Shown here one piece after another: positions 2,311-17,116 of a stretch of 62,823 bases of DNA. The stretch is taken from contig DATEKY010000065.1 of the NCBI GenBank assembly GCA_035277225.1, forward strand, positions 1 through 62,823. Direction: 5' to 3'. Every line of letters begins with the position of its first letter. Within the stretch, counting starts at the first letter, position 1. Source of the DNA: Xanthobacteraceae bacterium. Its GTDB lineage: Bacteria > Pseudomonadota > Alphaproteobacteria > Rhizobiales > Xanthobacteraceae. The position numbers and the translations under genes are program-made. The notes below the pieces were generated by a model. It saw only the letters and a list, made by a program, of their open reading frames with translations, had not been told where the DNA came from and ran no database searches.

Positions 2311-3609
2311 ATGCCCGCCGCCGACTTGTTGATAAAGCCGCAAAAGCCAACTTTCATTGACCTTTTTGCCGGCTGTGGCGGGTTCTCTCTCGGGTTCTGC
2401 CAGGCTGGATGGCAGGGCGTTTTCGCCATAGAGCGCGATGCATCTGCCTTCAAGACGTTTTCCAGTAACTTCCTCGATTCGAACTCCGAATACCCTTTCC
2501 TTTGGCCAGAGTGGCTGGAGAAAAAGAACGTCGACATACGACGGGCTCTCCGCGATCACCGCTCCGAACTGAGGAAGTTGCGTGGATCGATTGACGCGAT
2601 CATCGGAGGGCCACCGTGTCAAGGATTCTCGTTCGCTGGCCACCGCCGTCGCACGGATACGCGAAACCAGTTGTTCCGGGCTTACATCGACTTCGTCAAG
2701 GTCGTCCGTCCGCGCTTTGTTCTGATCGAGAACGTGCGGGGCATCTGCATCGAGCACGGGAAGAAGCAGCGACTTATTCGAAAGAATGGTCGGCCTGCGA
2801 TCCCATTCGCCCAGCGCATCGTTGATGCCTTGAAGGAGTTGGGCTATTGCACACGGGATCCCGAGTTAGTTCAGGCATCCGACTTCGGCGTACCGCAACG
2901 GCGCCCGCGCGTATTCTTTTTCGCGTATCGCAAGGACGCCGTGTCCGGCGTTGCGGAGCTGTTCAAGACTCTCTACGAATCGCGTCGGGGGTTTCTTCAG
3001 CAAAGGTCACTGCCGGTGAAGCGGCCCGTCCATGTCGAGGAGGCGATTTCCGACTTGATTCGCAAGCATGGGACCGTGAAGTGCGAAGACAAGTCATCGC
3101 CGAAAGGGTTTAGGCAGGGACTCTACGGTGCAAGGGAGTCCAAGTACCAGAGCCTCTTGAGAAACGGACACAGGCCGGGAATTCCCGCGCAGAGTCATCG
3201 TTTCGCCAATCACGAGGACGAAACCGAAAAGCGATTCAGGAAGATCCAGAAGGAATACCGCAAGGGCGTTCAACTTCACCAGCGCGATCGCGCGGAGTTG
3301 GATATCTCAAAGCACGTCGTCGTGCCTTTACGCGGCGACCAAATCGGCCACACGCTTACCACGCTACCGGACGATTACATTCATTACTGCGAGCCGAGAA
3401 TATTAACCGTGCGTGAGTATGCTCGCCTCCAAAGCTTCCCGGACGAATTCGTTTTCGACGGGCCATTCACAAGCGGAGGCGATCGTCGAAAGAAGACGTG
3501 TCCTCGTTATACCCAGATCGGCAATGCGGTTCCGCCTCTATTGGGCGAAGCGTTGGCCCTCGCCCTTCTCAAGATTCACGCTGCCGAAGATGCCGTACAA
3601 GCAGAATGA
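2311..3609 (+). CDS. DNA (cytosine-5)-methyltransferase
   Basis: C5-MTase motifs I, IV, VI, VIII, IX and X are all readable: FIDLFAGCGGFSLGF (I), GGPPCQGFS (IV), ENV (VI), QRRPRVFF (VIII), TVREYARLQSFPD (IX), GNAVPPLL (X). ATG at 2311; an alternative upstream start lies at 2233. Confidence 0.93.
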   Translation: MPAADLLIKPQKPTFIDLFAGCGGFSLGFCQAGWQGVFAIERDASAFKTFSSNFLDSNSEYPFLWPEWLEKKNVDIRRALRDHRSELRKLRGSIDAIIGGPPCQGFSFAGHRRRTDTRNQLFRAYIDFVKVVRPRFVLIENVRGICIEHGKKQRLIRKNGRPAIPFAQRIVDALKELGYCTRDPELVQASDFGVPQRRPRVFFFAYRKDAVSGVAELFKTLYESRRGFLQQRSLPVKRPVHVEEAISDLIRKHGTVKCEDKSSPKGFRQGLYGARESKYQSLLRNGHRPGIPAQSHRFANHEDETEKRFRKIQKEYRKGVQLHQRDRAELDISKHVVVPLRGDQIGHTLTTLPDDYIHYCEPRILTVREYARLQSFPDEFVFDGPFTSGGDRRKKTCPRYTQIGNAVPPLLGEALALALLKIHAAEDAVQAE

Positions 3610-5794
3610 GACTGTCGATCGCCTCCTGCTCCAGGCGTACGGTCAGAAGGCCGCGGTCGCCCTGCCCATTCCTCGCGCGGATGGTGCCGCAGTCGTTGGG
3701 AGGTTTCCTGCTGGCGTTAATAACACTCTCGACCATCTTGTAGATGCGTTCGTGGGCTGGCGCGAACGGCGAGAGGTCCATTGGTGCTTCCTGATCGGTG
3801 GACCAGGAAACGGTAAGTCGGAGGCATTGCGCATCCTCGCCGGCGCCCTCAACGTCACGCTGCCTGGCCGCGGAACCGGAGACCCCGCACCACGGACGGT
3901 ACCAAGTGAATGGCCCACATCGGCGCTCCCAGTGCACGATGGGCTCGAGATAGCTTTCATCAACGACGCGTCCATTCCTAGGCCGGATTGCCTGGGTCGC
4001 AACCTGCCCACATCGCTTTACAAGGATCTCGTGGACGGCCTCCAAAGGCTGGATCAGACGAACCCTGTCGTCTTGTTCGGCAACGTCAATCGCGGAATCT
4101 TGATCGAAGAGGTTGCAGCGAGTGAATCAGGGGTGAATGAGAATGATTCGTCGACTGGCGCCCTCGCTGTGCAAATCCTGGCTTGGCTGTCTCGCCCGGA
4201 CCAGCAACTCGATGCGGCTTCCGGACTCGCGGTGCCCTTCAAACCGACACGGTCGACAAAGTACTACTCACAAGCTGTCTTTAATGGCCAAACGAACAAG
4301 CTGGTCGTTCACGCCCTGTTTCTCGACACGCTCTCCCTTCTGGAGCCGTCCCCCGGCGGAACTAAAAGTATAGATTTCAGCAAGTCTCCTCCCGCCGTCG
4401 CGCCATACCACCCCATTGGAAGCGTCGATCCGACACAGGGCTCCAGGGAAGTGACTGTTGCCGGAGAGCGCACAGCGTTTTGGACGAGAGCCTCGTTGTG
4501 GAACGACGGCGGTTGCACGATCAACGGTCAGCAGTGCGCCGCCTACTCGGTATGTCCGTTTGCGGCTAACGCTCAGTGGCTACGCGCGCCGATACTGCGG
4601 GAACATTTCCTGTCCCTCATGCGCGGTGTCGAGGTCGCTGCTGGGAGACGCCTCTCCTACAGAGATCTTTTGGCCTACCTCTCTCTGGCCATCGTAGGGC
4701 CTCCCGAGGAAGCATGGCTGAACGGCCTCCATCCTTGTCGCTGGGTTGAGGATCGGCATCGCTTGGGTGACAGTCAGGCTCTCGCCGAATTGACGCACCG
4801 CCGCGTGTACGTGAACCTGTTTCCTAACCCGTCCTCGGATAGCTGGAAAAAGATCTCCCGGGGAGCGAAAACGGCACGAACCGTATATGGCTCGGTGCAG
4901 CGACGGTTCGTCGACGCCATCGAGCCAACGCTCAGTCCCTTTCATCGGAGCCTCGCGCGTCTCGATCCCGCAAGGGATGCAGATTCCTGGAACGAGCTCA
5001 GAACCAAGATTCTCGACATCTGTGACGCCGCCGACATTGAGCTGCCCGCCGTGCAGCTGCGAAACCTACCGGACCTGCCAGCCGCCGCGCATTCCGACGG
5101 TGAACAGGCCTTGGACCAGCTGGTGTCAGCGGAAATCGCAGGGGATCTAGCGAGTGGGAGCCGAATCGGGTCTGACCGGGTTCGCATCTTGCGCAAGTGG
5201 CGAGGCGTCCTATTGCTGCGCCAGGCGGGTCTCGCTACAGGGAACTTCACCTTTCGCAACACGATCAACGCGTGGCTCAGGGAGCACAGCGCGGCCTTGA
5301 GCGAGCTGCCTGGCGGAAGCCAGCTCCAAGTGGGCCTCACGAACCTGATACTCCCGCGCGTGGAATTAGGCGCCGCGCAACACTACATTCTTGTGCTGCC
5401 GCTTCGTCCACGGACGTATGCCCTAAGCGCATTGCCAGATCCATTCTCAGCATTCGTCGCGATCCCGCATGGCAACCTTCGCGTCCGCATGGTGGCTGAA
5501 AGCGACAGGCTGATCGCCGAAATCAGTGTCGTGGGTGCCACCGACGTGAAACGCATCGCAGATGTCGTTGTCGACTTCGCCATCGCGCGTGAAGGTCTCA
5601 TCCAGGCAACGGGTGACTTCACTGGATTCACCGAGATCGGGTACGGCGCCTTCGCACGGATCGAACGAGCCCGGGCCGCACTGGTCGGCAGGAAGCAGAC
5701 CGAGGATTTGTTGCTACACGTGGTCGGTTCAAGCGGTGATCACTTCCGCCTCGAACCCAATCCAACCGGAACTCCCGCGCTTCGAGCGATGTAG
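3590..5794 (+). CDS. P-loop NTPase of unknown family (DptF-like position and architecture)
   Basis: 734 aa from the ATG at 3590, which overlaps the methyltransferase 3' end by 20 nt. Walker A is FLIGGPGNGKSEAL (nt 3797-3820). A possible Walker B-like motif is LEIAFINDAS. The rest has no motif I recognise. Confidence 0.8.
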   Translation: MPYKQNETVDRLLLQAYGQKAAVALPIPRADGAAVVGRFPAGVNNTLDHLVDAFVGWRERREVHWCFLIGGPGNGKSEALRILAGALNVTLPGRGTGDPAPRTVPSEWPTSALPVHDGLEIAFINDASIPRPDCLGRNLPTSLYKDLVDGLQRLDQTNPVVLFGNVNRGILIEEVAASESGVNENDSSTGALAVQILAWLSRPDQQLDAASGLAVPFKPTRSTKYYSQAVFNGQTNKLVVHALFLDTLSLLEPSPGGTKSIDFSKSPPAVAPYHPIGSVDPTQGSREVTVAGERTAFWTRASLWNDGGCTINGQQCAAYSVCPFAANAQWLRAPILREHFLSLMRGVEVAAGRRLSYRDLLAYLSLAIVGPPEEAWLNGLHPCRWVEDRHRLGDSQALAELTHRRVYVNLFPNPSSDSWKKISRGAKTARTVYGSVQRRFVDAIEPTLSPFHRSLARLDPARDADSWNELRTKILDICDAADIELPAVQLRNLPDLPAAAHSDGEQALDQLVSAEIAGDLASGSRIGSDRVRILRKWRGVLLLRQAGLATGNFTFRNTINAWLREHSAALSELPGGSQLQVGLTNLILPRVELGAAQHYILVLPLRPRTYALSALPDPFSAFVAIPHGNLRVRMVAESDRLIAEISVVGATDVKRIADVVVDFAIAREGLIQATGDFTGFTEIGYGAFARIERARAALVGRKQTEDLLLHVVGSSGDHFRLEPNPTGTPALRAM

Positions 5795-5825: not shown

Positions 5826-7343
5826 ATGGCTGACAGTTGGTTAGAGGCGGCACTGCCGCTGGATAGGCCGGAGTACTCAAAGCAGACCGAAGCCCTGCTT
5901 ACGGACCTCCTATGGCGTTCAGAGGGTTCGACGCTCAGCGAAGTCGCGACGCAGCTCGCTGGTCTCGAGACAACCACAAAACAGAAGCTGGAAAGGGTCG
6001 TTTTCGAGAAGATCGGTAAGGCATCACCTGCAGTTCTGGAATCGATTCCTTTTGCTCGGGAAGCGGATATCAGTTCGATTGTTGCCGGACCGAGGGCCAA
6101 GGAGTGCCTGGCAGCCCTGCTCTTCGGCTTGAGAGCGCCTCGTTCAAGAGCGTACAAGTCCCTATCCGCAGTTCCTGTTCACCCGGAACTAGTGGCATTA
6201 CAGACGTTGCACGGGATCGTCAACAAAGAGAACCCAGCAAACCTCGCGAAGATCATTGAACGTTTCGGTCTGTTGGGCGGTTCGGATGGGGTTGGCGCTG
6301 TGGCTCGCCAGTTCCTTGCTGGCTTTGAAGCGCAACCAACGGCTCAACGCGGTCTGGCTGGTGCAGCCGGTGCCATCTACACGTCAATCTCCAGCGCGGT
6401 TTGGGAACAGCTGAGAACGCTAGCGGCAGCTTCCGGGAAGCCGTTGCCCGAGTGGCCAACCGTACGACCGAGACAGCACGAAGCCGCCGTTACTTTTCCC
6501 CACGTAGCCGCGCTGCCGCGCACGCCATTCAAGTGGTTCTGGGCCAAGTGGGTCATCCTCTGTGATCGCGAACGCGGCTGGCTGGATCACTTACCGGAAA
6601 GACGCTGGGTTGACTGGAGCCTTGCGCTGCTACGTGGTGCCTTGGCGTTTGGATATCTCTGGGAGGCGGAATGGTACGTGCGCATCTACGATCGGCTGGT
6701 TGAGCGACGACGAGGGTTAGAGCAAGGTCCCGAGAGGGAGAAACTCCTCGGCCTGCTCAACGGTCAGTTCACCCTCGCCGTGGTTCATCCTCGGCAGCTC
6801 GCGCCTTCGCAGAAGAGGATGTGGAGTGCACTTGCGGACAACGTTGCCAGGGGTTACGAAGTCAGGCGCCGATTGATCGCGTTCTTCGTGAACAATCCAA
6901 CGAACCAACCGCAGGATGGTGACCCGCGCACGACGGTTCCAGAATGGATCGACGCGCTGTCAATTGAAGATCTCGCGACGCTTGGGGACAGCCTGTCGAT
7001 CACAGCTTCGACAGCCACGAACACGAAGGAGTTCATCAGGTACTTGATGCTGCAACGATCCGCCGATGACGACTCCAGCGACCAAGCGGACCTTTACTAC
7101 TTGGCCCGCTCTCAGCAGTCGCATTTCTGGGTCGAGCTTGGCCCCGAATGGCTCGTCGTGGAGACGGCCCTGCTGGCCGGTCGCCCTGGGAAGAGCTGCA
7201 CCCTCAGGATGCTCATGGACGACTTGTCGTCGCTCGGTATCTTGATAGACCGATCGACGCTGGTCGGTTTGCTTGAGGATACGGGTTTGAGTGCGGATAG
7301 CCCGGATGCCGACGACGCCCTCGTCATCGAGTCCGGATTCTGA
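5826..7343 (+). CDS. Hypothetical protein (DptG-like position; no recognisable motif)
   Basis: 505-aa ORF lying 31 nt after the previous gene and 5 nt before the next. Its composition is protein-like. Confidence 0.8.
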   Translation: MADSWLEAALPLDRPEYSKQTEALLTDLLWRSEGSTLSEVATQLAGLETTTKQKLERVVFEKIGKASPAVLESIPFAREADISSIVAGPRAKECLAALLFGLRAPRSRAYKSLSAVPVHPELVALQTLHGIVNKENPANLAKIIERFGLLGGSDGVGAVARQFLAGFEAQPTAQRGLAGAAGAIYTSISSAVWEQLRTLAAASGKPLPEWPTVRPRQHEAAVTFPHVAALPRTPFKWFWAKWVILCDRERGWLDHLPERRWVDWSLALLRGALAFGYLWEAEWYVRIYDRLVERRRGLEQGPEREKLLGLLNGQFTLAVVHPRQLAPSQKRMWSALADNVARGYEVRRRLIAFFVNNPTNQPQDGDPRTTVPEWIDALSIEDLATLGDSLSITASTATNTKEFIRYLMLQRSADDDSSDQADLYYLARSQQSHFWVELGPEWLVVETALLAGRPGKSCTLRMLMDDLSSLGILIDRSTLVGLLEDTGLSADSPDADDALVIESGF

Positions 7344-7348
7344 CGACT

Positions 7349-10300
7349 ATGGGATTCCTGGGCAGCGCACTGGCGACTTACCTTGCTGAGTTCCGAGGCT
7401 TATATTCGGTCCAGCTCCCGCAAGCGCTGCGACCTGAGTTGGTCCGGCTCGTCGCGGACCTTAACAGCGTGACACCGAGGCGCGGGATCTACGTCAGTGA
7501 TCTCGACCTCCCGGGCGCGCCGCTCACGAGCCGCTGGGCCGAGGCATTGAGGTGGCGGACGGCGGACGATCGGATTTTTGTGTGGGAGCGCGGGGCGGGG
7601 GAGCCGGATTCATCCTTTCAGAGCGCCGTTCGCGATTTCATCGGTCCGCGGTTTCCAGTCGATGGGAGCATCTGTGACCTTGCGACGCTCGCGACGCTCG
7701 TGGTTCGGCACCTCTTTGCGTCGCGCGGCCTGAGCACTTCGGGGCCCTTCTTCGACGGCTTTGCTAACACGGCTGCCTGGGTTGCTGATGCCTATGCCTT
7801 GCTGTTCCGCGAGATCGGTTCGTCGACGGTTTCGCATTGGACCGATGGCTTCTTGGTCGAGTGGTCAGACTTCTGCGATCACCTTCCGCTCGTACTCGAC
7901 CGAGCGGTTGCCGAAGGGCTTCAACCTCGATTCGCCTGGGACATCGTTCGAGTCGCCGGCCTGGTCGTACCCCAGTTGGAAGCCGGAAGTCCGTTCGGGA
8001 ACTCGCCAGTCGACCACCTTCCTCACGAGAAGGCGCTCACGAAATACATCAAGACTTGGCAGCAAGTCGTTGGCAACTTTCTCGGTTCCAGCTCACATCG
8101 CGTCGTCCTTCTAAACGAGTTGGATCGTCGCGTTCAGGGTGCCGGAAGCCGGACGCCGTGGCGCGACCTTCCGTGGAACCAGCTCGATCAAGTCGCCGAC
8201 GGGTCGAGCGCAGCGGCCGTCGGCCGTCGAGTGTTTGCAGCGCCATCGTCGGTGTCCGTTATCGGCCCGCAGCCGCCGGTATATCCGGCTGCGCCTGACG
8301 GAACTTGGTGGGGTGTCACGGAGGAAGATCTGCAGGCGGCGATCGATGAGGTCAAAGAGGAGAGGCCGGTCGAACCGCTGCCATCGAGCCAGACAGTCAT
8401 ACAGCCGTTTCAATCGACGGACAATTACCTGCTTGCGACCCGCACCGGCAGTATCACCTTCCCGAGTACTGCTAAGAAATGGCGCTGCGCGATCCAGTGC
8501 CCCGAAGTTGAACTCCAGTATCGCGGTCGCTGGAAGTCCCTCTTTGTCGAGGAGGATGAGCCTGGAGGCGCCATTGATGGCGATGCTTGGATCCACCCCG
8601 GTGACATCGAGGTGAAGATATCTGGGAAAGGCGTGTCCGCAACGGTCGCGAACGCCGACAGTGTTGGCGGCCTGCTGAGGGTCACCTGCAACATCAAAGT
8701 TGAGTATTCGGGGGCCATTGACGCTACATCACAACGCGTCACGAGTGAGTGGGATCCCCACCGAAGCCTTGCGTTGATTCTGAAGATCTACAATCGTTCG
8801 GCAGACGGCTTCGCTGCTGCGCGGGAGGCACGCTCACAGATGGAACTCGTCGTTCCATCTTGCCTGGCTCCGACCATCGTCCTGAGGGCTGATGGCGACA
8901 CGGTCGTGTCGCCGACCGGAGATGATGAGTTCGTCCGCGAGCCAGGCGCCGAACAGGCCGCACCGTCAAGCACCCCCGAGATCAAACTGGCCGATGAAGA
9001 TGTGTATGACGTGTGCGTCTACGACGGCACCGTACGCGCCGGGATTGGTGCTTTCAACGATCCGAGTCCCGTAAGCGTAGGGGACGCCACGCTCGGCGTA
9101 GACCCCAACGTCATTGGCCTTGGCGTCGGCAGGCCCGCGCTTGCAGACGGAACAACACTTACGCGTCAAGCCAGCGGCCAACAAGACGAGCTGGCGGTCA
9201 TTCGCATCCTGGAAGAACAGCCGGCAGCTGTCTCTTCTGGCATCGTGGCCGTCCTCCAGGGGAAGCCCGCCGCACGGAGGCCGCCGAGCAACGCGGCCAC
9301 CGTCTCGATTCTCGGTCAGCATCAAACGCGTGTCGTTCGCGGAATCTGTTCCCAGCTCGGCGTCCTGCCGTTTGTTTCGTTGTTCCACACAGTTGTGGCA
9401 TCAGGGAGTTCTGTCGCCGTCTGGCCTGACCGACACCCGGCGACCAAGAGCCCCCTTTTCATCGGCCTTTCGCATGGCAGCCTCCCGGGAATCGGGAGTG
9501 GCCCAAGCACCATCTTCGGGACGCCAGAGTGGGCCGCTTTTGGCGACTCGCTCGAAGAAGTGTGCGCAGCCATCGGCCTGACACCGGAATCCCATGCTCT
9601 CTGGTTGTCAGGTTTCGACCCCTCGACCGTTCCGAGCACGGTGGTCCGTCGTTACAATCAGGCCCACGCGGCGCTGATCGATGCGGCGGAAGCGATTTCA
9701 CCAGCCGAGACGTTCTGGACCAGTTACCCGTTCTCCGTCGTTGTCGTAAACGGCCAACCAGGAAAGCACTTCGGCCAGCTTGAGGCAGTCCTGCTATCGC
9801 CGCTTCATCCTGTTCGTTTGACGTGGGCTCATTCGGTGGCAACGTTTGCGCGCCACATCGACGTGCGGGCGCCCGGCAGCCGAGAACTTCTCGGCTTGGC
9901 TGAGGGGTGGAACTTCCCGTTAGTCGGCCATGCGCCGAATGCTACCGGAGGGAAGCTTCAGCTCGTGGCGGTTCCGATCGATCCCGGGCCTGAACGAGAC
10001 TTCATCCAGTGGAGTGCTTTAGCTACCTTGGTACAAGGCCTCGTCGAAGTTCCGTCCGAGGCGACCGGGTTGCCGCTCCCCTGGGCCGGACGTTCCGGCA
10101 TCAACGACAAGGTCGTTCAGAGGTCGCTCGACGACTATCTAGCCGTTTCGCCGTATGTCGGCTCCCTTGTTGTCGATCTCCGCAGCGTTGCCCAAGCCCC
10201 GCGCTCTGCCGAGATCGACAACGCGGTCCTCGAGTTCTTGACCGACGCGTCGAATCCACTGGTTACAGCCCTGCCCGGCGGCGCGAGAGTGTGGGATTCA

Positions 10301-13192
10301 GCGTACAGGGAAGGACCGCCTCCGAGTAGAGACCGGCTCGCGACGTTCCGAGAGAAGAACCCCGATAGTGAAGTCGCGTTCGAGTGGAGATCGTACCAGC
10401 CGCCAGCTGTTCCCTCTCACTCGGATGTGGCGTTCGTCGAGAACGCCAGCGTCAGTCTCGATGTGGTGAATGGGACATCAGCCGGCTTCCTCGGTCCGCT
10501 CCCGCTGCGGCGCTTCTTGCCGGCCGATAACGCCCCCGGGCACATGGATCAGAACTTCAGGCCCAACGCAGATGAGGACGTACTTGGCTTGGCGTCTCTG
10601 CTTCGCAAGCTTGAGACGATCGGCAGCGATCTGGCCCTGCGATCCAGCCCAAGCCTCCAGACCCTTGGTATTGCACAAGGCGGCAAGTGGGAAGTGATCG
10701 GGACCCTCAACTTGTCGCCCCAGCTGCTGGCGTTGACGCTTGCAGGCACCACCAACAGCGCAGCCCGATTGCTTTGGGAGTGGCGGCCTTCTTGGCTGAA
10801 TCCTGAACGCCAGGCGGATGCCGACCTTGCCAGGCGTCCCTACTACGTGGTGGCGCGAATTCCCGCTTCGCTGAGCGTCGGTTTGGCATCGCGCCAAATG
10901 CTCTCCCAGGAGCGGATCAACCTCATGATTTCGGAACTAGGTCGACGTGCCGTCGGCCTGGCTACGTTATACGCCGCAGGCGACGCTCATGAGAATGCCG
11001 CCGCCGGCTTTTACGATGCCCTACAGCTTTTGCTGCCAGCGAATGTCACCACGCCTGCAGCGTGGATTCGACCCGCGCCATGGATCCAAACCATCGTACC
11101 GATTGACCCGCTAGCTGAGCTACTTGGAGCCCTCGGGGGGAAGAAGTTCCAGAGACGCGCGGATCTTTTGGCTGTCGGCTGTGTCCGCGACGGCATCGGC
11201 ACCCACGTCTGCCTGACACCCATCGAGGTCAAGCACCATGGGACACCAGCGAACCCGGCACCGCGGCCTCCCGATTCAGATCCAGAGCTGAAGCGCGCAC
11301 GGGACCAACTGAAACAGACGAACGAAGTCCTCGCATCGATACGTGACGCGTTGCCGGCGACCGAGGGCAACACGATGGTGGCGCTCGGACGCCGAAGCGG
11401 ACTTGCCGTTCTTATGGACTTCGCACTGGACTTCGCCGCGCACCCTGTTCCCGCTGAGCAGCGGGCGAAGATGATCGAAGACGTACTTGCGGGCAGATGC
11501 GCGATTTCCGTGGGTACGCCTTGCCTCTTGTGGCTCGCGCCCGGTTGCATGAGTCACACAGGTACTGCCGTCATTCGCAACCAGTTCGATGTCACGGCTG
11601 ACCTCCGAATCGAAGAGGCGTACGTCGATCCATACGCCGTACCGGGTCTTCTGTGGCCGGGCGAAGTCGCAGGCCCGAACGAACTGTTTGCCAGGACGCG
11701 CCTCGACGATATGATGACCGAGGCGACAAGCACATGCGGGCCAAGCAGCGTGGGCGGCTTCGACTTGCGGCCACCGTTGAAGACGCTCCTCAAGATCGAG
11801 GACGAGGAAGTGAAGCTGGAACCGGTCGTGGAAGGACCGGCGCCGGCTCCCGCCCCGGTGCCCGAGACCCCGCCGGTCATCCAACAAGCGCCACTGCCCC
11901 CGACTCCCGCGACGCCCGTTCAACCGCCCGCTCCGGTGTACTCGTCGACGCCTGTTCCTCCAACTCCGGCGGTGGTCGCATCCGGCGAACAGCCGCAGAT
12001 GGCCGCGCCGCAACTCGTCGTGGGTTCGCGCCAGCCTGGATCTCGCTGGACAGTTCTCGGCAAGCTGGCTACGGGATCACAAGAGCCTGTCGCGCTTGAC
12101 CTCGACCAACCGAAGGTGCTCGGGATCTTCGGCTACATGGGGTCCGGCAAGAGTTACCTTCTAGGAGCCGTAACGGAAGCGGCCGTCCAATCGATCGCGA
12201 ACCTCAACCAGCTCCGGGCACCATTGGCGGTCATCGTATTCAACTACCGCCGCAACGCCTCCGACAGGTTCGAGTTGTCCTCTCTGACGAATCCGAATGC
12301 AGATGCCGGGGATGTCAAGAGACTCGCGGACGAATTGAGCGCATTGCCTGCGGCTGTTCGCGACATGCACGTCTTGGCCTTGAAGGGTGAACTCAGACCA
12401 CACCGGCTGGCCGAGTATGGCACGACCACGGCGCAGGAGCTTCTATTCCGGCCCTCTACGCTTCACGTCGAGGACTGGGAGTTACTGATGGGCGAGCCAG
12501 ACGCCAACCGGCTGTACTCGCAGCTCATGCGCCATGCTTTGATCCAGCTGCGGGAACAGGGAGACGTGTCAGTCACGGGGCTCCGCACTCAGATCACCGC
12601 GTTCCCGAATCCAGGAAGCCGTAACGCAGCGAACCAGCGCCTGACCTTTGCGGAGAGGCATCTCTCTGAGTCGGCCGGGATCAACTTCAGCGAGGTTGTG
12701 CAACCGGGCCGCGTGCTCGTCATCGACCTGAGACAGCCGCTCTTCAGCAGAGATGATGCCCTACGGTTCTTCCTCGTGTGTGCGAATCAAATCAGCAGGG
12801 TCCAGGGGCAGTTCAACAAAATGGTGATTTTCGACGAAGCGCACGAGTACCTTTCCGAAGCATTCGGCGAGAAATTGGACAGCCGGATTCGGCTCAGCAG
12901 GCACGAAGGCACGTCGTACGTCTTTGCCACGCAGGACGTGGGTTCCATTCCGACAGAAATTCAGCGTTTCATTTCGACCAAGTTTGTCTTCGGTCTCGGT
13001 TCGAATCAAAACGCCAAGGACCTGCTCGAGTTCGCGCCCGAGTTCAAGGGGTTCGAACTGGTGGAGCTGCCGACAGGACAGTGCTTCGTGCAGTCAACAT
13101 ACTCGAGCAAGAATTTCTTTTCGCAGCCACGATTGATTCGCGTCCGTCCGCGGGCGTCTGCGCATGGTGGCGCTACCAGGATCTTCGCGTGA
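7349..13192 (+). CDS. Giant 1,947-aa protein with an unassigned N-terminal region, a PD-(D/E)xK-like motif, a Pro-rich linker and a C-terminal HerA/FtsK-like ATPase (DptH-like architecture)
   Basis: Single uninterrupted ORF. Motifs seen: ADLLAVG...VCLTPIEVKH (nt about 11160-11243); Pro/Ala/Thr-rich linker (nt about 11820-11990); Walker A GYMGSGKSYLLG (12131-12154); Walker B MVIFDEAHEYL (12821-12850); then RHEGTSYVFATQDVGSIP, typical of HerA/DUF87-type ATPases. Confidence 0.9.
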   Translation: MGFLGSALATYLAEFRGLYSVQLPQALRPELVRLVADLNSVTPRRGIYVSDLDLPGAPLTSRWAEALRWRTADDRIFVWERGAGEPDSSFQSAVRDFIGPRFPVDGSICDLATLATLVVRHLFASRGLSTSGPFFDGFANTAAWVADAYALLFREIGSSTVSHWTDGFLVEWSDFCDHLPLVLDRAVAEGLQPRFAWDIVRVAGLVVPQLEAGSPFGNSPVDHLPHEKALTKYIKTWQQVVGNFLGSSSHRVVLLNELDRRVQGAGSRTPWRDLPWNQLDQVADGSSAAAVGRRVFAAPSSVSVIGPQPPVYPAAPDGTWWGVTEEDLQAAIDEVKEERPVEPLPSSQTVIQPFQSTDNYLLATRTGSITFPSTAKKWRCAIQCPEVELQYRGRWKSLFVEEDEPGGAIDGDAWIHPGDIEVKISGKGVSATVANADSVGGLLRVTCNIKVEYSGAIDATSQRVTSEWDPHRSLALILKIYNRSADGFAAAREARSQMELVVPSCLAPTIVLRADGDTVVSPTGDDEFVREPGAEQAAPSSTPEIKLADEDVYDVCVYDGTVRAGIGAFNDPSPVSVGDATLGVDPNVIGLGVGRPALADGTTLTRQASGQQDELAVIRILEEQPAAVSSGIVAVLQGKPAARRPPSNAATVSILGQHQTRVVRGICSQLGVLPFVSLFHTVVASGSSVAVWPDRHPATKSPLFIGLSHGSLPGIGSGPSTIFGTPEWAAFGDSLEEVCAAIGLTPESHALWLSGFDPSTVPSTVVRRYNQAHAALIDAAEAISPAETFWTSYPFSVVVVNGQPGKHFGQLEAVLLSPLHPVRLTWAHSVATFARHIDVRAPGSRELLGLAEGWNFPLVGHAPNATGGKLQLVAVPIDPGPERDFIQWSALATLVQGLVEVPSEATGLPLPWAGRSGINDKVVQRSLDDYLAVSPYVGSLVVDLRSVAQAPRSAEIDNAVLEFLTDASNPLVTALPGGARVWDSAYREGPPPSRDRLATFREKNPDSEVAFEWRSYQPPAVPSHSDVAFVENASVSLDVVNGTSAGFLGPLPLRRFLPADNAPGHMDQNFRPNADEDVLGLASLLRKLETIGSDLALRSSPSLQTLGIAQGGKWEVIGTLNLSPQLLALTLAGTTNSAARLLWEWRPSWLNPERQADADLARRPYYVVARIPASLSVGLASRQMLSQERINLMISELGRRAVGLATLYAAGDAHENAAAGFYDALQLLLPANVTTPAAWIRPAPWIQTIVPIDPLAELLGALGGKKFQRRADLLAVGCVRDGIGTHVCLTPIEVKHHGTPANPAPRPPDSDPELKRARDQLKQTNEVLASIRDALPATEGNTMVALGRRSGLAVLMDFALDFAAHPVPAEQRAKMIEDVLAGRCAISVGTPCLLWLAPGCMSHTGTAVIRNQFDVTADLRIEEAYVDPYAVPGLLWPGEVAGPNELFARTRLDDMMTEATSTCGPSSVGGFDLRPPLKTLLKIEDEEVKLEPVVEGPAPAPAPVPETPPVIQQAPLPPTPATPVQPPAPVYSSTPVPPTPAVVASGEQPQMAAPQLVVGSRQPGSRWTVLGKLATGSQEPVALDLDQPKVLGIFGYMGSGKSYLLGAVTEAAVQSIANLNQLRAPLAVIVFNYRRNASDRFELSSLTNPNADAGDVKRLADELSALPAAVRDMHVLALKGELRPHRLAEYGTTTAQELLFRPSTLHVEDWELLMGEPDANRLYSQLMRHALIQLREQGDVSVTGLRTQITAFPNPGSRNAANQRLTFAERHLSESAGINFSEVVQPGRVLVIDLRQPLFSRDDALRFFLVCANQISRVQGQFNKMVIFDEAHEYLSEAFGEKLDSRIRLSRHEGTSYVFATQDVGSIPTEIQRFISTKFVFGLGSNQNAKDLLEFAPEFKGFELVELPTGQCFVQSTYSSKNFFSQPRLIRVRPRASAHGGATRIFA

Positions 13193-13974
13193 CGATCGCT
13201 CGCGTGAGTCGAAGAGTCGGAAACACCAAGGCCGCACACGGTGACCGGCGGCTTCCACGCAGTGAGTCCTGCCACAGCGTGCGACGTCGTTTGCTTGCTT
13301 GGCTTGAGGGTCATGGCCGAAGCTTCGCTTGGCGTCGGCCGTCAGCTTCGTTGTATCGGCTTGTTGTCACCGAGGCGCTGCTCCAACGAACTAGGGCTGA
13401 AACGGTTAACAATTTCTACGCGCCCTTCTTTCGGCGTTTTCCATCTTGGCAGGCTTTGGCACAGGTTTCTGAAGCCGAATTGCAGGATTACCTGCGGCCG
13501 ATCGGATTGTGGAAGCGCCGGTCGGCCAGTTTGCGGAGCCTCGCGATCGAAATGGCCAAGCGACGTGGGCGCTTCCCTTCGGCCAGAGAAGAGATCGAGG
13601 CCTTACCTGGTGTGGGCCAGTACGTCGCGAATGCGGTCCTGCTGTTTGCGCATGGACGCAGTGAGCCGCTGCTTGACGCCAACGTTGCGAGAGTCTTGGA
13701 GCGCCACTTTGGACCGCGACGCCTTGCCGACATCCGCTACGACCCATACCTTCAAAAGTTGGCAAGAATGGTCGTCTCGTCCGAGCGCCCAGCAAAAGTC
13801 AATTGGGCTCTTTTGGATTTGGCGGCGTTGATCTGCCGCATCCGGGCGCCTCTGTGTCAAGAGTGCCCGCTGTCCGCGACCTGCCACGATTACACTCGTC
13901 GGCGGAACAACGCGGACGATGTTACCGAGGCCAAGTGCGGTCGCAGAACCGCTAGCATCACACGAGCAGTCTGA
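13189..13974 (+). CDS. HhH-GPD DNA glycosylase with a 4Fe-4S cluster, MutY/Mig-like
   Basis: Motifs seen: LVVTEALLQRTRAETV; HhH LPGVGQYVANAVLLFA; catalytic-Asp motif LLDANVARVLERHFG; Cys-X6-Cys-X2-Cys-X5-Cys (CRIRAPLCQECPLSATC). The GTG at 13189 overlaps the TGA of the giant gene (GTGA). Confidence 0.85.
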   Translation: MTIARVSRRVGNTKAAHGDRRLPRSESCHSVRRRLLAWLEGHGRSFAWRRPSASLYRLVVTEALLQRTRAETVNNFYAPFFRRFPSWQALAQVSEAELQDYLRPIGLWKRRSASLRSLAIEMAKRRGRFPSAREEIEALPGVGQYVANAVLLFAHGRSEPLLDANVARVLERHFGPRRLADIRYDPYLQKLARMVVSSERPAKVNWALLDLAALICRIRAPLCQECPLSATCHDYTRRRNNADDVTEAKCGRRTASITRAV

Positions 13975-14086: not shown

Positions 14087-15883
14087 GTGGCGCGATTGGC
14101 GGGTTTTCCTGAAGACACATTCCTCGCAATGACCCGCATTCGCGACACTTCTCTAGTGCGCTTTGATAGCCTCTTTACGCCCGACCGCCACCTCTGGGCT
14201 GCCCAGAACCTGAAACGCTTTCATGCCTTGTTCGTCGAGCGCTTCGACGAGGGCGAGGGCTCGTTCTTGGAGAAGTTTCGTAAGCAGCTCGATGGAGCCG
14301 ACGACGATGTCTACCAGCTCGCCGCGGAGTTGCTTTACGTTCAGCAGTTCTTCACGAGCTTGACCGGGCCCGATAAGAAGATCGAGAACGTGCAAGCCGT
14401 TCTCGGCTGGTGTACACATCCCGTCCAAGTCCCAGAATGGGCGATCTCTGGCGTCAAGCGCGGCCTCGCTGGAGATCAAAGTTTCAATCAGCACCGTCCC
14501 TTCCATCTGGCGTGGCTGAACGAGTTCCTGATTCACTGGCATGAGACGCCAAGCGAGAAGAGGAGCGACCTCCTTAAGGACCCGTGGCTCTTCGCTCAGC
14601 ATGAACGAGGCGTCGAGTTCTCAGGTGGAGCTTACCAGCCGATGCGCGAGGCTTGGCTCTACATCATCTTCCCAGAGCATTTCGAGAACATCTCCTCCCG
14701 GCGGGACAAGAAGCTCATTCGGGAGGCATTCAAAACACGACTCGAACACGGCGCCACCGACAACATCGACGCGGACCTGCTGGCGATCCGAAAGAGCTTC
14801 AGTCCCCAGGAGGGCGAGGGGTTCCACTTCTATCGCTCGCCGTTTATCGAGCAGTGGCAAACGGAGCGGAAGAAGACAAAGAGCAATGACGGTGGCACGG
14901 TTAGCAAGTTGAAAGGCGAGTTGCCAGTTGTCGAGCGCCCACAGAGCCCTGTGTCTCTGGCGACGACGTCGATCGATCAACTGAGTGCTCTCGGCGCCGA
15001 CCTCTTTCTCGATCCGCCGGCGGTACTCGGTGAGTGGGCCGCTCTTATCCTCGATGCTCGACAGTTGATCTTCCAGGGGCCACCTGGGACCGGAAAAACG
15101 TTCATCGCGCGTAAGCTCGCCGATGCAATCGCCGGTCACCGAGATCGAGTTGAGCTCGTGCAGTTTCACCCGTCGTACGCATACGAGGATTTCGTCGAAG
15201 GGTACCGACCTGTCGGCGCTGGTTCCTTCGCGTTGCAGCCCGGACCGATTAAACGCCTAGCCGCCAGGGCGACAGCCGCGCCCGATCACCGCTTCGTCTT
15301 GGTCATTGACGAGATCAACCGGGGCAACCTGGCGAAGGTCTTTGGCGAGCTGTACTACCTTCTCGAGTATCGCGACGACGCCATCACGCTGCAGTACTCC
15401 CAGGAGCCCTTTCGCCTTCCGCCGAATGTCCACATCGTCGGTACCATGAACACCGCCGACCGTTCGATCGCTTTGCTCGACATGGCCTTGCGACGGCGCT
15501 TCCGGTTTGTCGACCTCCTGCCGGACAGTCCGCCGCTTAAGGGATTGTTGAGAAGGTTTCTCGACCGAAAGGCGCCGGACATGGCGTTCCTCGCGGACAT
15601 GCTCGACGATGTCAATCGACAATTGAACGATCCGCACGCATCAGTAGGGCCAAGTCACTTCTTGCTCAAAGACACTCGGACACTGACGGAAGACAAGGCT
15701 GAACTCATTTGGAACCACTCGATTCTGCCTGCACTTGGTGACCGCTTCTTCGATTCGCCCGAGGAGTTGAAAAGGTTTCAGTACCAGACCGTACGCGGGC
15801 GAACGTCGCTTGGCGATTTGGTGACTCCGTCACCCTCCGAAGAACCCGAGGACGACGAGCGTGCGTCGACTGACGCTAACTGA
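14087..15883 (+). CDS. mcrB: McrB-like AAA+ GTPase subunit of a modification-dependent restriction system
   Basis: Motifs seen: LIFQGPPGTGKTF, VLVIDEINRGNLAKVFGELYYLLEYR, IVGTMNTADRSIALLDMALRRRFRF. GTG start is preceded by AGGAGG (14074-14079). The roughly 320-aa N-terminal domain is not recognisable. Confidence 0.9.
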   Translation: MARLAGFPEDTFLAMTRIRDTSLVRFDSLFTPDRHLWAAQNLKRFHALFVERFDEGEGSFLEKFRKQLDGADDDVYQLAAELLYVQQFFTSLTGPDKKIENVQAVLGWCTHPVQVPEWAISGVKRGLAGDQSFNQHRPFHLAWLNEFLIHWHETPSEKRSDLLKDPWLFAQHERGVEFSGGAYQPMREAWLYIIFPEHFENISSRRDKKLIREAFKTRLEHGATDNIDADLLAIRKSFSPQEGEGFHFYRSPFIEQWQTERKKTKSNDGGTVSKLKGELPVVERPQSPVSLATTSIDQLSALGADLFLDPPAVLGEWAALILDARQLIFQGPPGTGKTFIARKLADAIAGHRDRVELVQFHPSYAYEDFVEGYRPVGAGSFALQPGPIKRLAARATAAPDHRFVLVIDEINRGNLAKVFGELYYLLEYRDDAITLQYSQEPFRLPPNVHIVGTMNTADRSIALLDMALRRRFRFVDLLPDSPPLKGLLRRFLDRKAPDMAFLADMLDDVNRQLNDPHASVGPSHFLLKDTRTLTEDKAELIWNHSILPALGDRFFDSPEELKRFQYQTVRGRTSLGDLVTPSPSEEPEDDERASTDAN

Positions 15884-17090: not shown

Positions 17091-17116
17091 CGTTCAAGTC
17101 GTACGCGACCACAGCT

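What the first reader, a model, noticed from the sequence alone, without database searches (positions are those of the whole stretch)
7349..13192. Domain architecture of the 1,947-aa giant: PD-(D/E)xK-like core, proline-rich tether and a HerA/FtsK-like motor
Seen in the sequence:
- About 1,250 aa of unassigned N-terminal sequence.
- A nuclease-like D...E-x-K arrangement (RRADLLAVGCVRDGIGTHVCLTPIEVKHHG, nt about 11160-11243).
- A roughly 55-aa Pro/Ala/Thr/Val linker (EGPAPAPAPVPETPPVIQQAPLPPTPATPVQPPAPVYSSTPVPPTP, nt about 11820-11990).
- An ATPase with Walker A GYMGSGKS, Walker B VIFDEAHEY and the HerA/DUF87-type RHEGTSYVFATQD motif.

Inference: this could be a translocase tethered flexibly to a nuclease, that is, a motor-driven DNA-degrading effector. 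The long disordered tether between nuclease and motor is unusual.
Basis: partly seen in the sequence, partly recalled or inferred. Interest (0 to 1): 0.7.

Follow-up and report, generated by a model that had tools for sequence, protein, structure and literature searches.

The report
DndH-like restriction giant tied to cytosine methylation
The 1,947-residue protein really does join a nuclease-type active site to a DNA-pumping ATPase through a floppy linker, and it looks like the large subunit of an apparently undescribed anti-phage restriction system, distantly related to DndFGH, that marks its own DNA by cytosine methylation instead of sulfur.

Summary
ORF 7349-13192 encodes 1,947 aa carrying every quoted motif.

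- **Nuclease signature:** across 133 homologues, D1253, D1272, E1293 and Q1320 are invariant and K1295 is 94% conserved. The other seven [DE]xK sites are not conserved.
- **ATPase:** the C-terminal domain is a HerA/FtsK ATPase. Its best solved match, by fold and by sequence, is the DndH/DptH C-domain (7ES4). TdpA and HerA follow, ahead of VirB4 and TrwB.
- **Linker:** it is real (77 aa, 29% Pro) but not unusual. Every relative has a variable low-complexity linker there, and so does genuine DptH.
- **Operon:** the giant is gene 4 of a conserved five-gene operon: C5 DNA methyltransferase, a 734-aa P-loop protein, a 505-aa protein, the giant, and a Mig/MutY-core glycosylase. Rhizobial plasmids carry Vsr in place of the glycosylase.
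- **Relationship to DptF/G/H:** gene order, sizes and weak collinear profile matches parallel DptF/DptG/DptH. Curated Dnd models miss everything except the ATPase.

Best reading: a divergent DndFGH-like, ATP-driven restriction module that tells self from non-self by 5-methylcytosine, with built-in T:G repair. I rate it a new variant of a known kind. The nuclease fold and the first 1,200 aa remain structurally unconfirmed.

The parts
2311..3609 (+). C5 cytosine DNA methyltransferase (432 aa), the modification gene of the cassette
   Evidence: Pfam DNA_methylase 1.8e-57 and TIGR00675 dcm 3.4e-49. Motifs I (FAGCGG), IV (GGPPCQGFS), VI (ENV) and X (GNAVPP) are all present. Its stop overlaps the start of the next gene. 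It is linked to the giant in every complete homologous locus.
3590..5794 (+). Protein A (734 aa): P-loop protein, DndF/DptF-like by position, size class and motifs
   Evidence: Walker A GGPGNGKS at residues 70-77. hhalign against DptF gives P=1.3e-3 over the P-loop. GxGKSE, DA[ST] and [VI]NxG[IM]L motifs occur in the same order in both. No Pfam, PADLOC or NCBIfam hit.
5826..7343 (+). Protein B (505 aa): DndG/DptG-like by position and size
   Evidence: Conserved in all loci. Residues 430-501 align with the C-terminal region of DptG (368-441), which the literature describes as a wHTH, with P=0.048. This is weak. No library hit.
7349..13192 (+). The giant (1,947 aa): DndH/DptH-like restriction subunit
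7349..8248 (+). Giant residues 1-300: N-terminal alpha/beta plus helical domain, function unassigned; R70 is 98% conserved
   Evidence: AF2 pLDDT mostly 65-89 with a beta-alpha-beta pattern. R70 conservation. No significant Foldseek hit.
8411..9208 (+). Giant residues about 355-620: all-beta, fast-evolving region (probable beta-sandwich domains)
   Evidence: DSSP on the AF2 model is all strands and pLDDT is up to about 80. This is the least conserved stretch upstream of the linker in the family alignment. Only low-probability Ig-like Foldseek hits.
9581..10768 (+). Giant residues about 745-1140: most conserved core, including LSPLHPxRLxW (H820, P821, R823, W826 at 99-100%)
   Evidence: The motif aligns with DptH YSPYHPLVLSY (P=1.4e-3) on the same diagonal as the nuclease motif. 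The AF2 model here is poor.
10907..11788 (+). Giant residues about 1187-1480: PD-(D/E)xK-type (REase-like) domain. D1253 = nt 11105-11107, D1272 = nt 11162-11164, E1293-x-K1295 = nt 11225-11233, Q1320 = nt 11306-11308
   Evidence: Invariance in 133 homologues. The AF2 element order is helix, strand, helix, strand (D1272 immediately before it), strand (contains ExK), helix (contains Q1320), with pLDDT about 62-90. It aligns with the invariant D1100/E1117/K1119/Q1132 of DptH.
11792..12022 (+). Giant residues 1482-1558: Pro/Val/Ala-rich low-complexity linker
   Evidence: 29% Pro. Variable in length and sequence among homologues. AF2 pLDDT 23-46 with no secondary structure.
12023..13189 (+). Giant residues 1559-1947: HerA/FtsK-class ATPase. 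Walker A K1601, Walker B D1829/E1830, Arg finger R1851, sensor-1 Q1862
   Evidence: PADLOC mad8 5.2e-19. hhalign against the DptH ATPase gives 99.9% probability, E 3.7e-37. Foldseek top hit is 7ES4, the DndH C-domain, E 7.1e-5. The profile against PDB sequences also ranks 7es4 first. Residue conservation is 96-99%.
13189..13974 (+). HhH-GPD glycosylase (261 aa) of the MutY/Mig catalytic-core type; inferred T:G mismatch repair for 5mC deamination
   Evidence: Pfam HhH-GPD 2.3e-15. PDB hits: MutY catalytic domain 1e-31 and 1KEA 'possible G-T mismatches repair enzyme' 1.5e-29; at 261 aa it is too short to hold the extra C-terminal part of the 350-369-aa MutY chains. A Cx6Cx2Cx5C Fe-S loop and LDANVARV are present. 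The GTG start overlaps the giant's TGA stop. Vsr takes its place in the rhizobial cassettes.

Best explanation
The giant is the large, DndH/DptH-equivalent subunit of a three-protein, ATP-dependent restriction module: A is a P-loop protein, B a putative DNA-binding protein, and the giant the third. The module is hard-wired to a C5 cytosine methyltransferase rather than to phosphorothioation.

**Proposed mechanism.**
1. The cassette's methyltransferase marks host sites with 5-methylcytosine.
2. The A/B/giant complex surveys DNA through the giant's long N-terminal recognition region and through B.
3. On unmethylated DNA, the C-terminal HerA/FtsK ATPase drives translocation. It probably works as a ring-forming oligomer, held to the rest of the protein by a flexible linker of about 77 aa.
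4. The adjacent PD-(D/E)xK site (D1253, D1272, E1293, K1295, Q1320) nicks or cleaves the DNA.
5. The fifth gene is a Mig/MutY-core glycosylase here and Vsr in other clades. It repairs the T:G mismatches produced when the system's own 5mC deaminates.

**Shown here.** Domain order, motif invariance, the class of the ATPase, cassette conservation across phyla, and the Mig/Vsr replacement.

**Inferred.** Complex formation, methylation-sensitive licensing, translocation, and nicking. These rest on analogy with the published ATPase, translocase and nickase activities of DndFGH.
For: **Architecture.**
- The invariant D/D/ExK/Q signature lies directly upstream of the ATPase.
- The ATPase has Walker A, Walker B, an Arg finger and a sensor-1 Gln, as described for the DndH HerA/FtsK domain in PMC10853773.
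- The best solved match is 7ES4, the DndH C-domain, by fold and by sequence profile. hhalign against 120 DptH sequences gives 99.9% probability.

**Collinear weak matches to DptH outside the ATPase, both with offset 172.**
- SPLHP motif, P=1.4e-3.
- ADLL...PIEVK motif against the invariant DptH D1100/E1117/K1119, P=5.4e-4.

**Operon parallel.** A-B-giant (734/505/1,947 aa) has the same order as dptF-dptG-dptH (532/445/1,729 aa in Aliivibrio). A shares three ordered P-loop motifs with DptF, and the C-terminus of B aligns with the C-terminus of DptG.

**Cassette conservation.**
- Methyltransferase + A + B + giant are found in the window, in metagenomic homologues, and in 7 of 7 complete loci from Chloroflexota, Alphaproteobacteria, Pirellulales, Rokubacteria and Roseomonas.
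- They are also found on Rhizobium, Sinorhizobium and Pseudoalteromonas plasmids.
- The methyltransferase changes position and strand in L006, L018 and L017 but stays linked.

**Modification is real.** The repair gene differs between clades, Mig-like here and Vsr in rhizobia. This argues that the methyltransferase is active in vivo.

**Linker.** A linker at this position is shared with the whole family and with DptH.

**Published activity.** DndFGH is reported as a nickase and translocase (abstract of PMC11662687; PMC10853773).
Against: - No curated DndF/G/H or DptF/G/H model (PADLOC, NCBIfam) hits A, B or the first 1,550 aa of the giant. In more distant relatives the DndH models hit only the ATPase.
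- The non-ATPase similarities to DptF/G/H are short motif-level matches with hhalign probabilities of 1-30%.
- The ATPase subtype here is closest to MADS mad8, not to DndH-type ATPases. Other clades of the same family carry DndH-type ATPases.
- No Foldseek or PDB-profile hit confirms a REase fold. The only hints are non-significant herpesvirus UL24 hits; UL24 has been proposed to be a PD-(D/E)xK protein (my own knowledge).
- The N-terminal 1,100 aa gave no significant structural match, and the AF2 models are of low overall confidence (pLDDT 52-56).
- No experiment exists on any member.
Confidence: 0.68

Rival explanations
1. The giant is a self-contained, motor-driven DNA-degrading effector. 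The nuclease and translocase act on their own and the neighbouring genes are incidental.
For: Both catalytic modules sit in one polypeptide with intact motifs. PMC10853773 argues that DndFGH itself can act without a dedicated modification module.
Against: A, B and the C5 methyltransferase accompany the giant in every complete locus examined, across several phyla and on plasmids. Start and stop codons overlap or lie 5-31 nt apart. A T:G repair gene co-travels.
Confidence: 0.1
2. It is a member or fusion variant of the MADS methylation-associated defence system, with the C-terminus equivalent to mad8.
For: The best PADLOC hit for the window giant is mad8 (5.2e-19, residues 1568-1943). MADS is also methylation-linked.
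Against: The hit covers only the ATPase. MAD6, MAD7 and MAD8 are all mandatory for MADS, and no mad6 or mad7 model hits any window protein. [quoted passage not shown] Here there is a single C5 methyltransferase and no kinase or specificity-subunit hit.
Confidence: 0.06
3. The C-terminal ATPase is a conjugative or secretion DNA pump (VirD4/TrwB, VirB4, FtsK-like), and the protein serves DNA transfer of a mobile element rather than defence.
For: Weak NCBIfam hits to VirB4/CagE, TrbE, EccC and CedD. Foldseek lists VirB4 and TrwB at E 0.02-0.1. The window also carries a metal-resistance island typical of mobile DNA.
Against: DndH-C, TdpA and HerA rank above the coupling proteins by fold and by sequence. 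The ORFs examined showed no T4SS or relaxase genes. The operon partners are a methyltransferase and a mismatch-repair enzyme, and McrBC lies next door.
Confidence: 0.03
4. The D...ExK region is a non-catalytic or DNA-binding relic. Defence would then work without cleavage, for example by translocase-driven blockage of replication, as is discussed for BREX-like systems.
For: No structural or library confirmation of a REase fold. The restriction mechanism of several methylation-based multi-gene systems is unknown (PMC12904381).
Against: Five putative catalytic positions are 94-100% conserved over 133 sequences whose surrounding identity is about 30%. The equivalent residues are invariant in 120 DptH sequences. 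Relics normally lose such residues.
Confidence: 0.1

Closest known systems
DndH/DptH of the DndFGH (DptFGH) restriction module
   Same: - A protein of about 1,700-1,950 aa with a REase-type D...ExK...Q site, then a low-complexity linker, then a C-terminal HerA/FtsK ATPase with an Arg finger and sensor-1 Gln.
- It is the third gene after a P-loop protein and a protein of about 450-500 aa.
- The nearest solved structure to the ATPase is the DndH C-domain, 7ES4.
- Different HerA/FtsK subtypes sit on the same core in different clades, which is the 'HerA/FtsK capture' described in PMC10853773.
   Different: - Curated Dnd/Dpt models do not detect it outside the ATPase.
- Similarity in the core is limited to two short collinear motifs.
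- It is linked to a C5 methyltransferase and a T:G repair gene instead of, or without, dndBCDE.
- A is about 200 aa longer than DptF, and the giant is about 200-250 aa longer than DptH.
MADS mad8 ATPase
   Same: It is the best PADLOC match for the window giant's ATPase domain (5.2e-19). Both belong to methylation-associated multi-gene defence loci.
   Different: Only the ATPase matches. [quoted passage not shown]
HerA-nuclease pairs (HerA-NurA; TdpAB)
   Same: A HerA/FtsK-class motor is coupled to a nuclease. TdpA and Sulfolobus HerA are the next-best structural matches after DndH-C.
   Different: In those systems the motor and the nuclease are separate polypeptides that assemble. Here they are one chain joined by a flexible linker, with about 1,200 aa of extra N-terminal domains.
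Type II C5-methyltransferase R-M systems with Vsr or Mig (for example Dcm-Vsr; M.MthTI with Mig.MthI)
   Same: A Dcm-type methyltransferase with all catalytic motifs, plus a dedicated T:G mismatch repair enzyme in the same operon. Vsr and a Mig-like glycosylase replace one another between clades.
   Different: The restriction part is not a small type II endonuclease. It is three proteins totalling about 3,200 aa, with two P-loop NTPase domains.

Membership tests
DndH/DptH (DndFGH module) | C-terminal HerA/FtsK-clade ATPase (Walker A/B, Arg finger, sensor-1 Gln) | tested here: met
   K1601, D1829/E1830, R1851 and Q1862 are 96-99% conserved. hhalign against DptH gives 99.9% probability, E 3.7e-37. 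7ES4 is the top Foldseek hit and the top PDB-profile hit.
DndH/DptH (DndFGH module) | Active REase domain immediately upstream of the ATPase | tested here: inconclusive
   The motif is present and invariant. It aligns with the invariant D1100/E1117/K1119/Q1132 of DptH at P=5.4e-4, hhalign probability 30%. The AF2 element order is compatible. No significant fold match to any REase was found.
DndH/DptH (DndFGH module) | N-terminal inactive SWI2/SNF2 lobe + HTH, two beta-sandwiches, TRD + inactive Dam-like methyltransferase | tested here: inconclusive
   An alpha/beta N-domain with one highly conserved Arg (R70) and an all-beta region at 355-620 are predicted. Foldseek gives nothing significant. 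hhalign of the N-terminal and beta regions against DptH gives P>0.6. Only the SPxHP motif matches (P=1.4e-3).
DndH/DptH (DndFGH module) | Operon with DndF (P-loop kinase-like) and DndG (triple wHTH, 450-500 aa) upstream, in that order | tested here: inconclusive
   The order and approximate sizes match. A against DptF gives P=1.3e-3 with three ordered shared motifs. B against DptG gives P=0.048.
DndH/DptH (DndFGH module) | Recognised by curated DptH/DndH models | tested here: not met
   No NCBIfam or PADLOC Dnd/Dpt hit for the window proteins. In relatives P0091-P0132 the PADLOC DndH models match only the C-terminal ATPase.
DndH/DptH (DndFGH module) | Association with dndBCDE phosphorothioation genes | tested here: not met
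   No dnd genes were found in the window ORFs examined or in the homologous loci. A C5 methyltransferase is present instead. PMC10853773 reports that this association is often absent for DndFGH too.
PD-(D/E)xK nuclease superfamily | Core alpha-beta-beta-beta-alpha-beta fold with D at the start of strand 2 and (D/E)xK in strand 3 | tested here: inconclusive
   In the AF2 model D1272 comes immediately before strand 1273-1280, ExK lies in strand 1285-1296, and Q1320 lies in the following helix. No Pfam hit. No PDB profile hit. Only non-significant UL24 hits.
MADS (mad1-8) | MAD6, MAD7 and MAD8 all present (mandatory) | tested here: not met
   Only mad8 hits, and only on the ATPase. The requirement comes from the MADS preprint.
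Conjugative coupling or T4SS ATPases (VirD4/TrwB, VirB4) | Closest relatives are coupling or T4SS ATPases, and T4SS genes lie nearby | tested here: not met
   They rank below DndH-C, TdpA and HerA. NCBIfam scores are far below cut-off (17-27 bits against 346-643). The window ORFs examined contain no T4SS genes.
Mig/MutY-type HhH-GPD glycosylase (neighbour gene) | MutY-like catalytic core with an Fe-S loop but without the MutY C-terminal domain | tested here: met
   It matches 1KEA along its full length (1.5e-29) and MutY catalytic domains (1e-31). At 261 aa it is too short to hold the extra C-terminal part of the 350-369-aa MutY chains. The Cx6Cx2Cx5C loop is present. Substrate specificity was not tested.

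The most novel reading that the evidence does not exclude
The cassette (C5 methyltransferase, A, B, giant, then Mig-like glycosylase or Vsr) is an undescribed, widely dispersed class of multi-subunit restriction system. It would be a sister lineage of DndFGH in which 5-methylcytosine, not phosphorothioate, is the self mark. Its giant subunit has repeatedly swapped its HerA/FtsK motor. Members on cultured rhizobial plasmids would make it directly testable how a DndH-type nuclease-translocase reads a DNA modification.
Probability: 0.5. Interest if true: 0.75.

Novelty: new variant of a known kind. Interest (0 to 1): 0.62.

Why it matters
How DndFGH tells self from non-self is unresolved. Only 10-15% of consensus sites are phosphorothioated, and one comparative study argues that DndFGH has no modification partner of its own (PMC10853773).

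A related three-protein module is described here. It is always linked to an ordinary C5 methyltransferase, and it carries either Vsr or a Mig-type glycosylase to pay the mutational cost of 5mC. That gives a simpler system in which the modification is easy to map and manipulate.

It also adds a family of about 300 representative clusters that current defence finders miss (PADLOC v2, NCBIfam, Pfam). Members lie on Rhizobium and Sinorhizobium plasmids, so the system can be studied in cultured organisms.

Tried and rejected
- **Library searches of the whole protein.** Pfam, NCBIfam, PADLOC and PDB-sequence searches found nothing upstream of residue 1,560.
- **First homology search.** Searching with the full protein returned only 7 clusters. 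Searching by domain showed the family is much larger.
- It was rerun with 6 rows.
- **'Stand-alone' ATPases.** Proteins of 540-590 aa that are 55-58% identical to the C-terminus (P0008, P0013, P0015) first looked like free ATPases on mobile elements, a possible source of 'capture'. I rejected this reading. Their N-termini align with residues about 1350-1480 of the giant, so they are probably truncated giants.
- **In-frame stop in L019.** It looked like a natural split at the linker, but it is a TAG inside the conserved LLWFAPG motif, so that copy is a nonsense mutant or a sequencing error.
- **Foldseek of the N-terminal model.** No significant hits.
- **Foldseek of the C-terminal model.** Against PDB it is dominated by the ATPase, so the nuclease domain could not be searched alone, and the prediction jobs were exhausted.
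- **Nuclease-region profile against PDB.** A 17-sequence profile gave no hit.
- **The search for related loci.** The closer alignment worked.
- **E1215 as a catalytic residue.** Rejected, because it is not conserved in the wider family.
- **Global hhalign of the nuclease domains.** It gave no alignment.
Full report
**1. The observation**

- ORF 7349..13192 (+) is open for 1,947 codons from an ATG that lies 5 nt after the stop of the preceding gene.
- All quoted strings are present at, or within a few bases of, the stated coordinates:

| Feature | Residues | Nucleotides |
|---|---|---|
| Nuclease-like motif | 1269-1298 | 11153-11242 |
| Quoted Pro-rich string | 1495-1540 | 11831-11968 |
| Walker A GYMGSGKS | 1595-1602 | 12131-12154 |
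| Walker B VIFDEAHEY | 1826-1834 | 12824-12850 |
| RHEGTSYVFATQD | 1851-1863 | 12899-12937 |

- Curated libraries see almost nothing. Pfam gives one sub-threshold AAA_10 match, PADLOC gives mad8 (5.2e-19) and a weak HerA hit, and all of these fall on the last 380 residues. NCBIfam gives only far-sub-threshold secretion or conjugation ATPase hits, and a PDB sequence search gives none.
- The statement that about 1,250 N-terminal residues are unassigned is therefore fair.

**2. Is the nuclease motif more than chance?**

- As a bare pattern, no. D-x(10-30)-[DE]-x-K occurs 11 times in this protein, against 5.2 +/- 3.3 in shuffles.
- Conservation settles the matter. An exhaustive profile search with residues 290-1485 found 298 representative proteins at E <= 0.001 and 197 at E <= 1e-30. 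Most are 1,800-2,000 aa long.
- In an alignment of 133 near-full-length members:
  - D1253, D1272, E1293, Q1320 and G1220 are invariant;
  - K1295 is K in 125, R in 5 and T in 3;
  - the other seven [DE]xK sites reach at most 53% and 27% conservation.
- The AF2 model of residues 1060-1947 has low overall confidence (pLDDT 52) but reaches 62-90 across 1219-1479. It places D1272 immediately before a strand, E1293-x-K1295 inside the next strand and Q1320 in the following helix. This order is what a PD-(D/E)xK core requires.
- No structure or profile search confirmed the fold. The PDB Foldseek list is dominated by ATPase hits (FokI only at E=2.5). A 17-sequence profile of the domain finds nothing in PDB sequences. 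Several herpesvirus UL24 proteins appear only at non-significant E-values; UL24 is a proposed PD-(D/E)xK family, from my own knowledge.
- My verdict: the catalytic signature is well supported, and the fold is probable but unproven.

**3. The ATPase**

- Walker A K1601, Walker B D1829/E1830, R1851 and Q1862 are 96-99% conserved.
- Foldseek ranks 7ES4 ('DndH-C-domain', E 7.1e-5) first. Next come TdpA of TdpAB, Sulfolobus HerA, VirB4 and TrwB. A sequence profile of the domain also ranks 7es4 first (E 0.0022), then TdpA.
That criterion is not met.

**4. The linker**

- Residues 1482-1558 are 29% Pro, have AF2 pLDDT 23-46 and no predicted secondary structure.
- Among the seven closest homologues the linker varies freely in sequence and length.
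- Across the 133-member family, the segment between the nuclease domain and the ATPase is 24-206 aa long (median 79) and about 75% disorder-promoting residues.
- Aliivibrio DptH has a TETETE-type low-complexity linker at the same place.
- The tether is real, but it is a shared trait of this architecture and not an oddity.

**5. Genomic context**

- The giant is the fourth gene of an operon with overlapping or closely spaced genes:

| Gene | Coordinates | Notes |
|---|---|---|
| C5 DNA methyltransferase | 2311-3609 | Motifs I, IV, VI and X intact |
| Protein A, 734 aa | 3590-5794 | Walker A GGPGNGKS at residue 70 |
| Protein B, 505 aa | 5826-7343 | No library hit |
| Giant | 7349-13192 | |
| HhH-GPD protein, 261 aa | 13189-13974 | GTG start overlaps the giant's TGA |

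- The same five genes accompany every close homologue whose contig is long enough.
- In genomes of named organisms, 7 of 7 complete loci carry methyltransferase, A, B and giant, and 6 of 7 also carry the HhH-GPD gene. These come from Candidatus Chloroploca, three alphaproteobacterial MAGs, Roseomonas ponticola, a Pirellulales MAG and a Rokubacteria MAG.
- In L006 and L018 the methyltransferase lies downstream on the other strand but remains linked.
- More distant family members lie on plasmids of cultured bacteria:
  - Rhizobium leguminosarum pRL31b4 and Sinorhizobium fredii pSfreGR64a carry Dcm, A (about 680-700 aa), B (503 aa), giant (about 1,820 aa, annotated 'ATP-binding protein') and Vsr;
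  - a Pseudoalteromonas plasmid carries A, B, giant and then Dcm.
- Window A and B are detectably homologous to the rhizobial and Pseudoalteromonas A and B (BLAST E-values from 1.8e-9 to 5.9e-5).

**6. The fifth gene**

- The 261-aa protein matches MutY catalytic domains (1e-31) and, along its full length, 1KEA, deposited as a possible G-T mismatch repair enzyme (1.5e-29). At 261 aa it is too short to hold the extra C-terminal part of the 350-369-aa MutY chains.
- It has the Fe-S cluster loop.
- In the rhizobial cassettes Vsr, the classical T:G endonuclease that accompanies Dcm-type methyltransferases, holds the same operon position.
- Two unrelated T:G repair enzymes in one slot is best explained if the cassette's methyltransferase really produces 5mC in vivo and the system carries its own remedy for deamination. 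That is inference, but strong inference.

**7. Relationship to DndFGH**

- PMC10853773 describes the three subunits:
  - DndH averages about 1,700 aa. It has recognition domains, an inactive Dam-like methyltransferase, an active REase and a C-terminal HerA/FtsK ATPase that different lineages acquired from different sources.
  - DndF is a derived P-loop kinase.
  - DndG is a 450-500-aa triple wHTH protein.
- The gene order, the size classes, and the order REase, linker, HerA/FtsK are the same here.
- I fetched genuine dptFGH loci and 120 DptH sequences and compared profiles:

| Comparison | Result |
|---|---|
| ATPase domains | 99.9% probability, E 3.7e-37 |
| Giant 814-836 (LLSPLHPVRLTW) with DptH 642-664 (YYSPYHPLVLSY) | P=1.4e-3 in a domain-restricted run |
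| Giant 1271-1298 (ADLL...PIEVKHH) with DptH 1099-1122 (DDVLLVGF...LPVEVKTG) | P=5.4e-4 |
| Protein A with DptF, around the P-loop | P=1.3e-3 |
| B residues 430-501 with DptG 368-441 (the published wHTH region) | P=0.048 |

- The two non-ATPase matches to DptH lie on the same diagonal (offset 172).
- In the first, shallower hhalign run (two DptH sequences) the nuclease-motif alignment also extended to pair Q1320 with DptH Q1132. E1068, D1100, E1117, K1119 and Q1132 are invariant in all 120 DptH sequences.
- Protein A shares GxGKSE, DA[ST] and [VI]NxG[IM]L with DptF in the same order.
- Each match is weak on its own (hhalign probabilities 1-30%). Their collinearity, across three proteins in the same gene order, makes distant common ancestry the best explanation.
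- The N-terminal and beta-rich regions show no detectable similarity, and curated Dnd/Dpt models do not recognise the family. I therefore do not file it as a DndH family member. I call it a DndFGH-like variant.

**8. Motor swapping**

- The window clade's ATPase is 55-58% identical within the clade.
- It shows only Walker-motif similarity to the ATPases of other clades, whose cores are nevertheless 28-33% identical to the window giant at E 1e-61 to 1e-107.
- Those other clades carry DndH-type ATPases (PADLOC DndH, 1e-35 to 1e-61, on the C-terminus only). The window clade's ATPase is mad8-like.
- One core carrying different HerA/FtsK domains reproduces the 'capture' pattern reported for DndH.

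**9. Surroundings**

- Downstream lie McrB (14087-15883), McrC (15861-17090), a 257-aa ORF and a REase-ARP nuclease (17979-19004, minus strand). Together these form a small defence island.
- The rest of the window encodes copper and heavy-metal resistance: P-type ATPases, RND efflux pumps, a multicopper oxidase and CopB.
- The ORFs examined contained no dnd modification genes and no T4SS genes.

**10. Literature**

Full-text searches found no description of a DndFGH-like module linked to a C5 methyltransferase with Vsr or Mig. PMC10853773 reports cytosine methylases next to the DndD/CxC-DndE modification cores, not next to DndFGH, which it treats as lacking its own modification module. Absence from this library is not proof of novelty.

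**11. Verdict**

It is wrong about the tether being unusual, and it misses the system-level context.
- The most likely function is the large subunit of a methylation-discriminating, ATP-driven restriction complex related to DndFGH (confidence about 0.68).
- Novelty: a new variant of a known kind.

Noticed in passing
window 13189-13974; L014 13136-13591; L027 12139-12579: The gene after the giant is a Mig/MutY-core HhH-GPD glycosylase in the window clade, but Vsr in the rhizobial plasmid cassettes. Two unrelated T:G repair enzymes appear to have replaced each other in the same operon slot.
   Followed up: partly
window 14087-19004: A McrBC pair, a 257-aa ORF with no hits and a REase-ARP nuclease (minus strand) lie directly downstream of a cassette that makes 5-methylcytosine. 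The host's own methylated motif must escape this McrBC. McrBC is not adjacent in the homologous loci.
   Followed up: no
window 19095-62823: The rest of the window is a copper and heavy-metal resistance island: four P-type ATPases, two RND pumps with a membrane-fusion protein and an outer-membrane factor, a multicopper oxidase, CopB and DUF305. This suggests the defence cassette sits on an island or plasmid-like region. No tRNA genes are found in the window.
   Followed up: partly
L019 13313-13318; L025 5229-14996: The alphaproteobacterial MAG copy in L019 has an in-frame TAG inside the conserved LLWFAPG motif of the giant. In L025 the A, B and giant genes are broken into several ORFs. These copies may be decaying, or the breaks may be assembly errors.
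   Followed up: partly
L012 3539-5218 (P0013); also P0008, P0015: ORFs of 540-590 aa correspond to the last 550 or so residues of a giant: the tail of the nuclease domain, the linker and the ATPase. One lies about 660 bp from a phage-type integrase gene, with one small ORF between them. They are probably truncated remnants, although a functional short form is not excluded.
   Followed up: partly
L001 4950-6241 versus L002 4949-6241: In two near-identical contigs from different assemblies, the cassette's methyltransferase is called as two ORFs (129 + 301 aa) in one and as a single 430-aa ORF in the other. This is a frameshift or an assembly difference.
   Followed up: no
window 3413-5794: The mechanical ORF list gives 793 aa from a GTG at 3413. 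Public gene calls use the ATG at 3590 (734 aa), which overlaps the methyltransferase stop by 20 nt, and the homologues are 740-769 aa. The shorter start is more likely.
   Followed up: partly
L003 4532-4753: In one homologous locus a 73-aa HTH_17 protein sits immediately upstream of the methyltransferase and overlaps its start. It may be a controller-type regulator. No equivalent was identified in the window.
   Followed up: no
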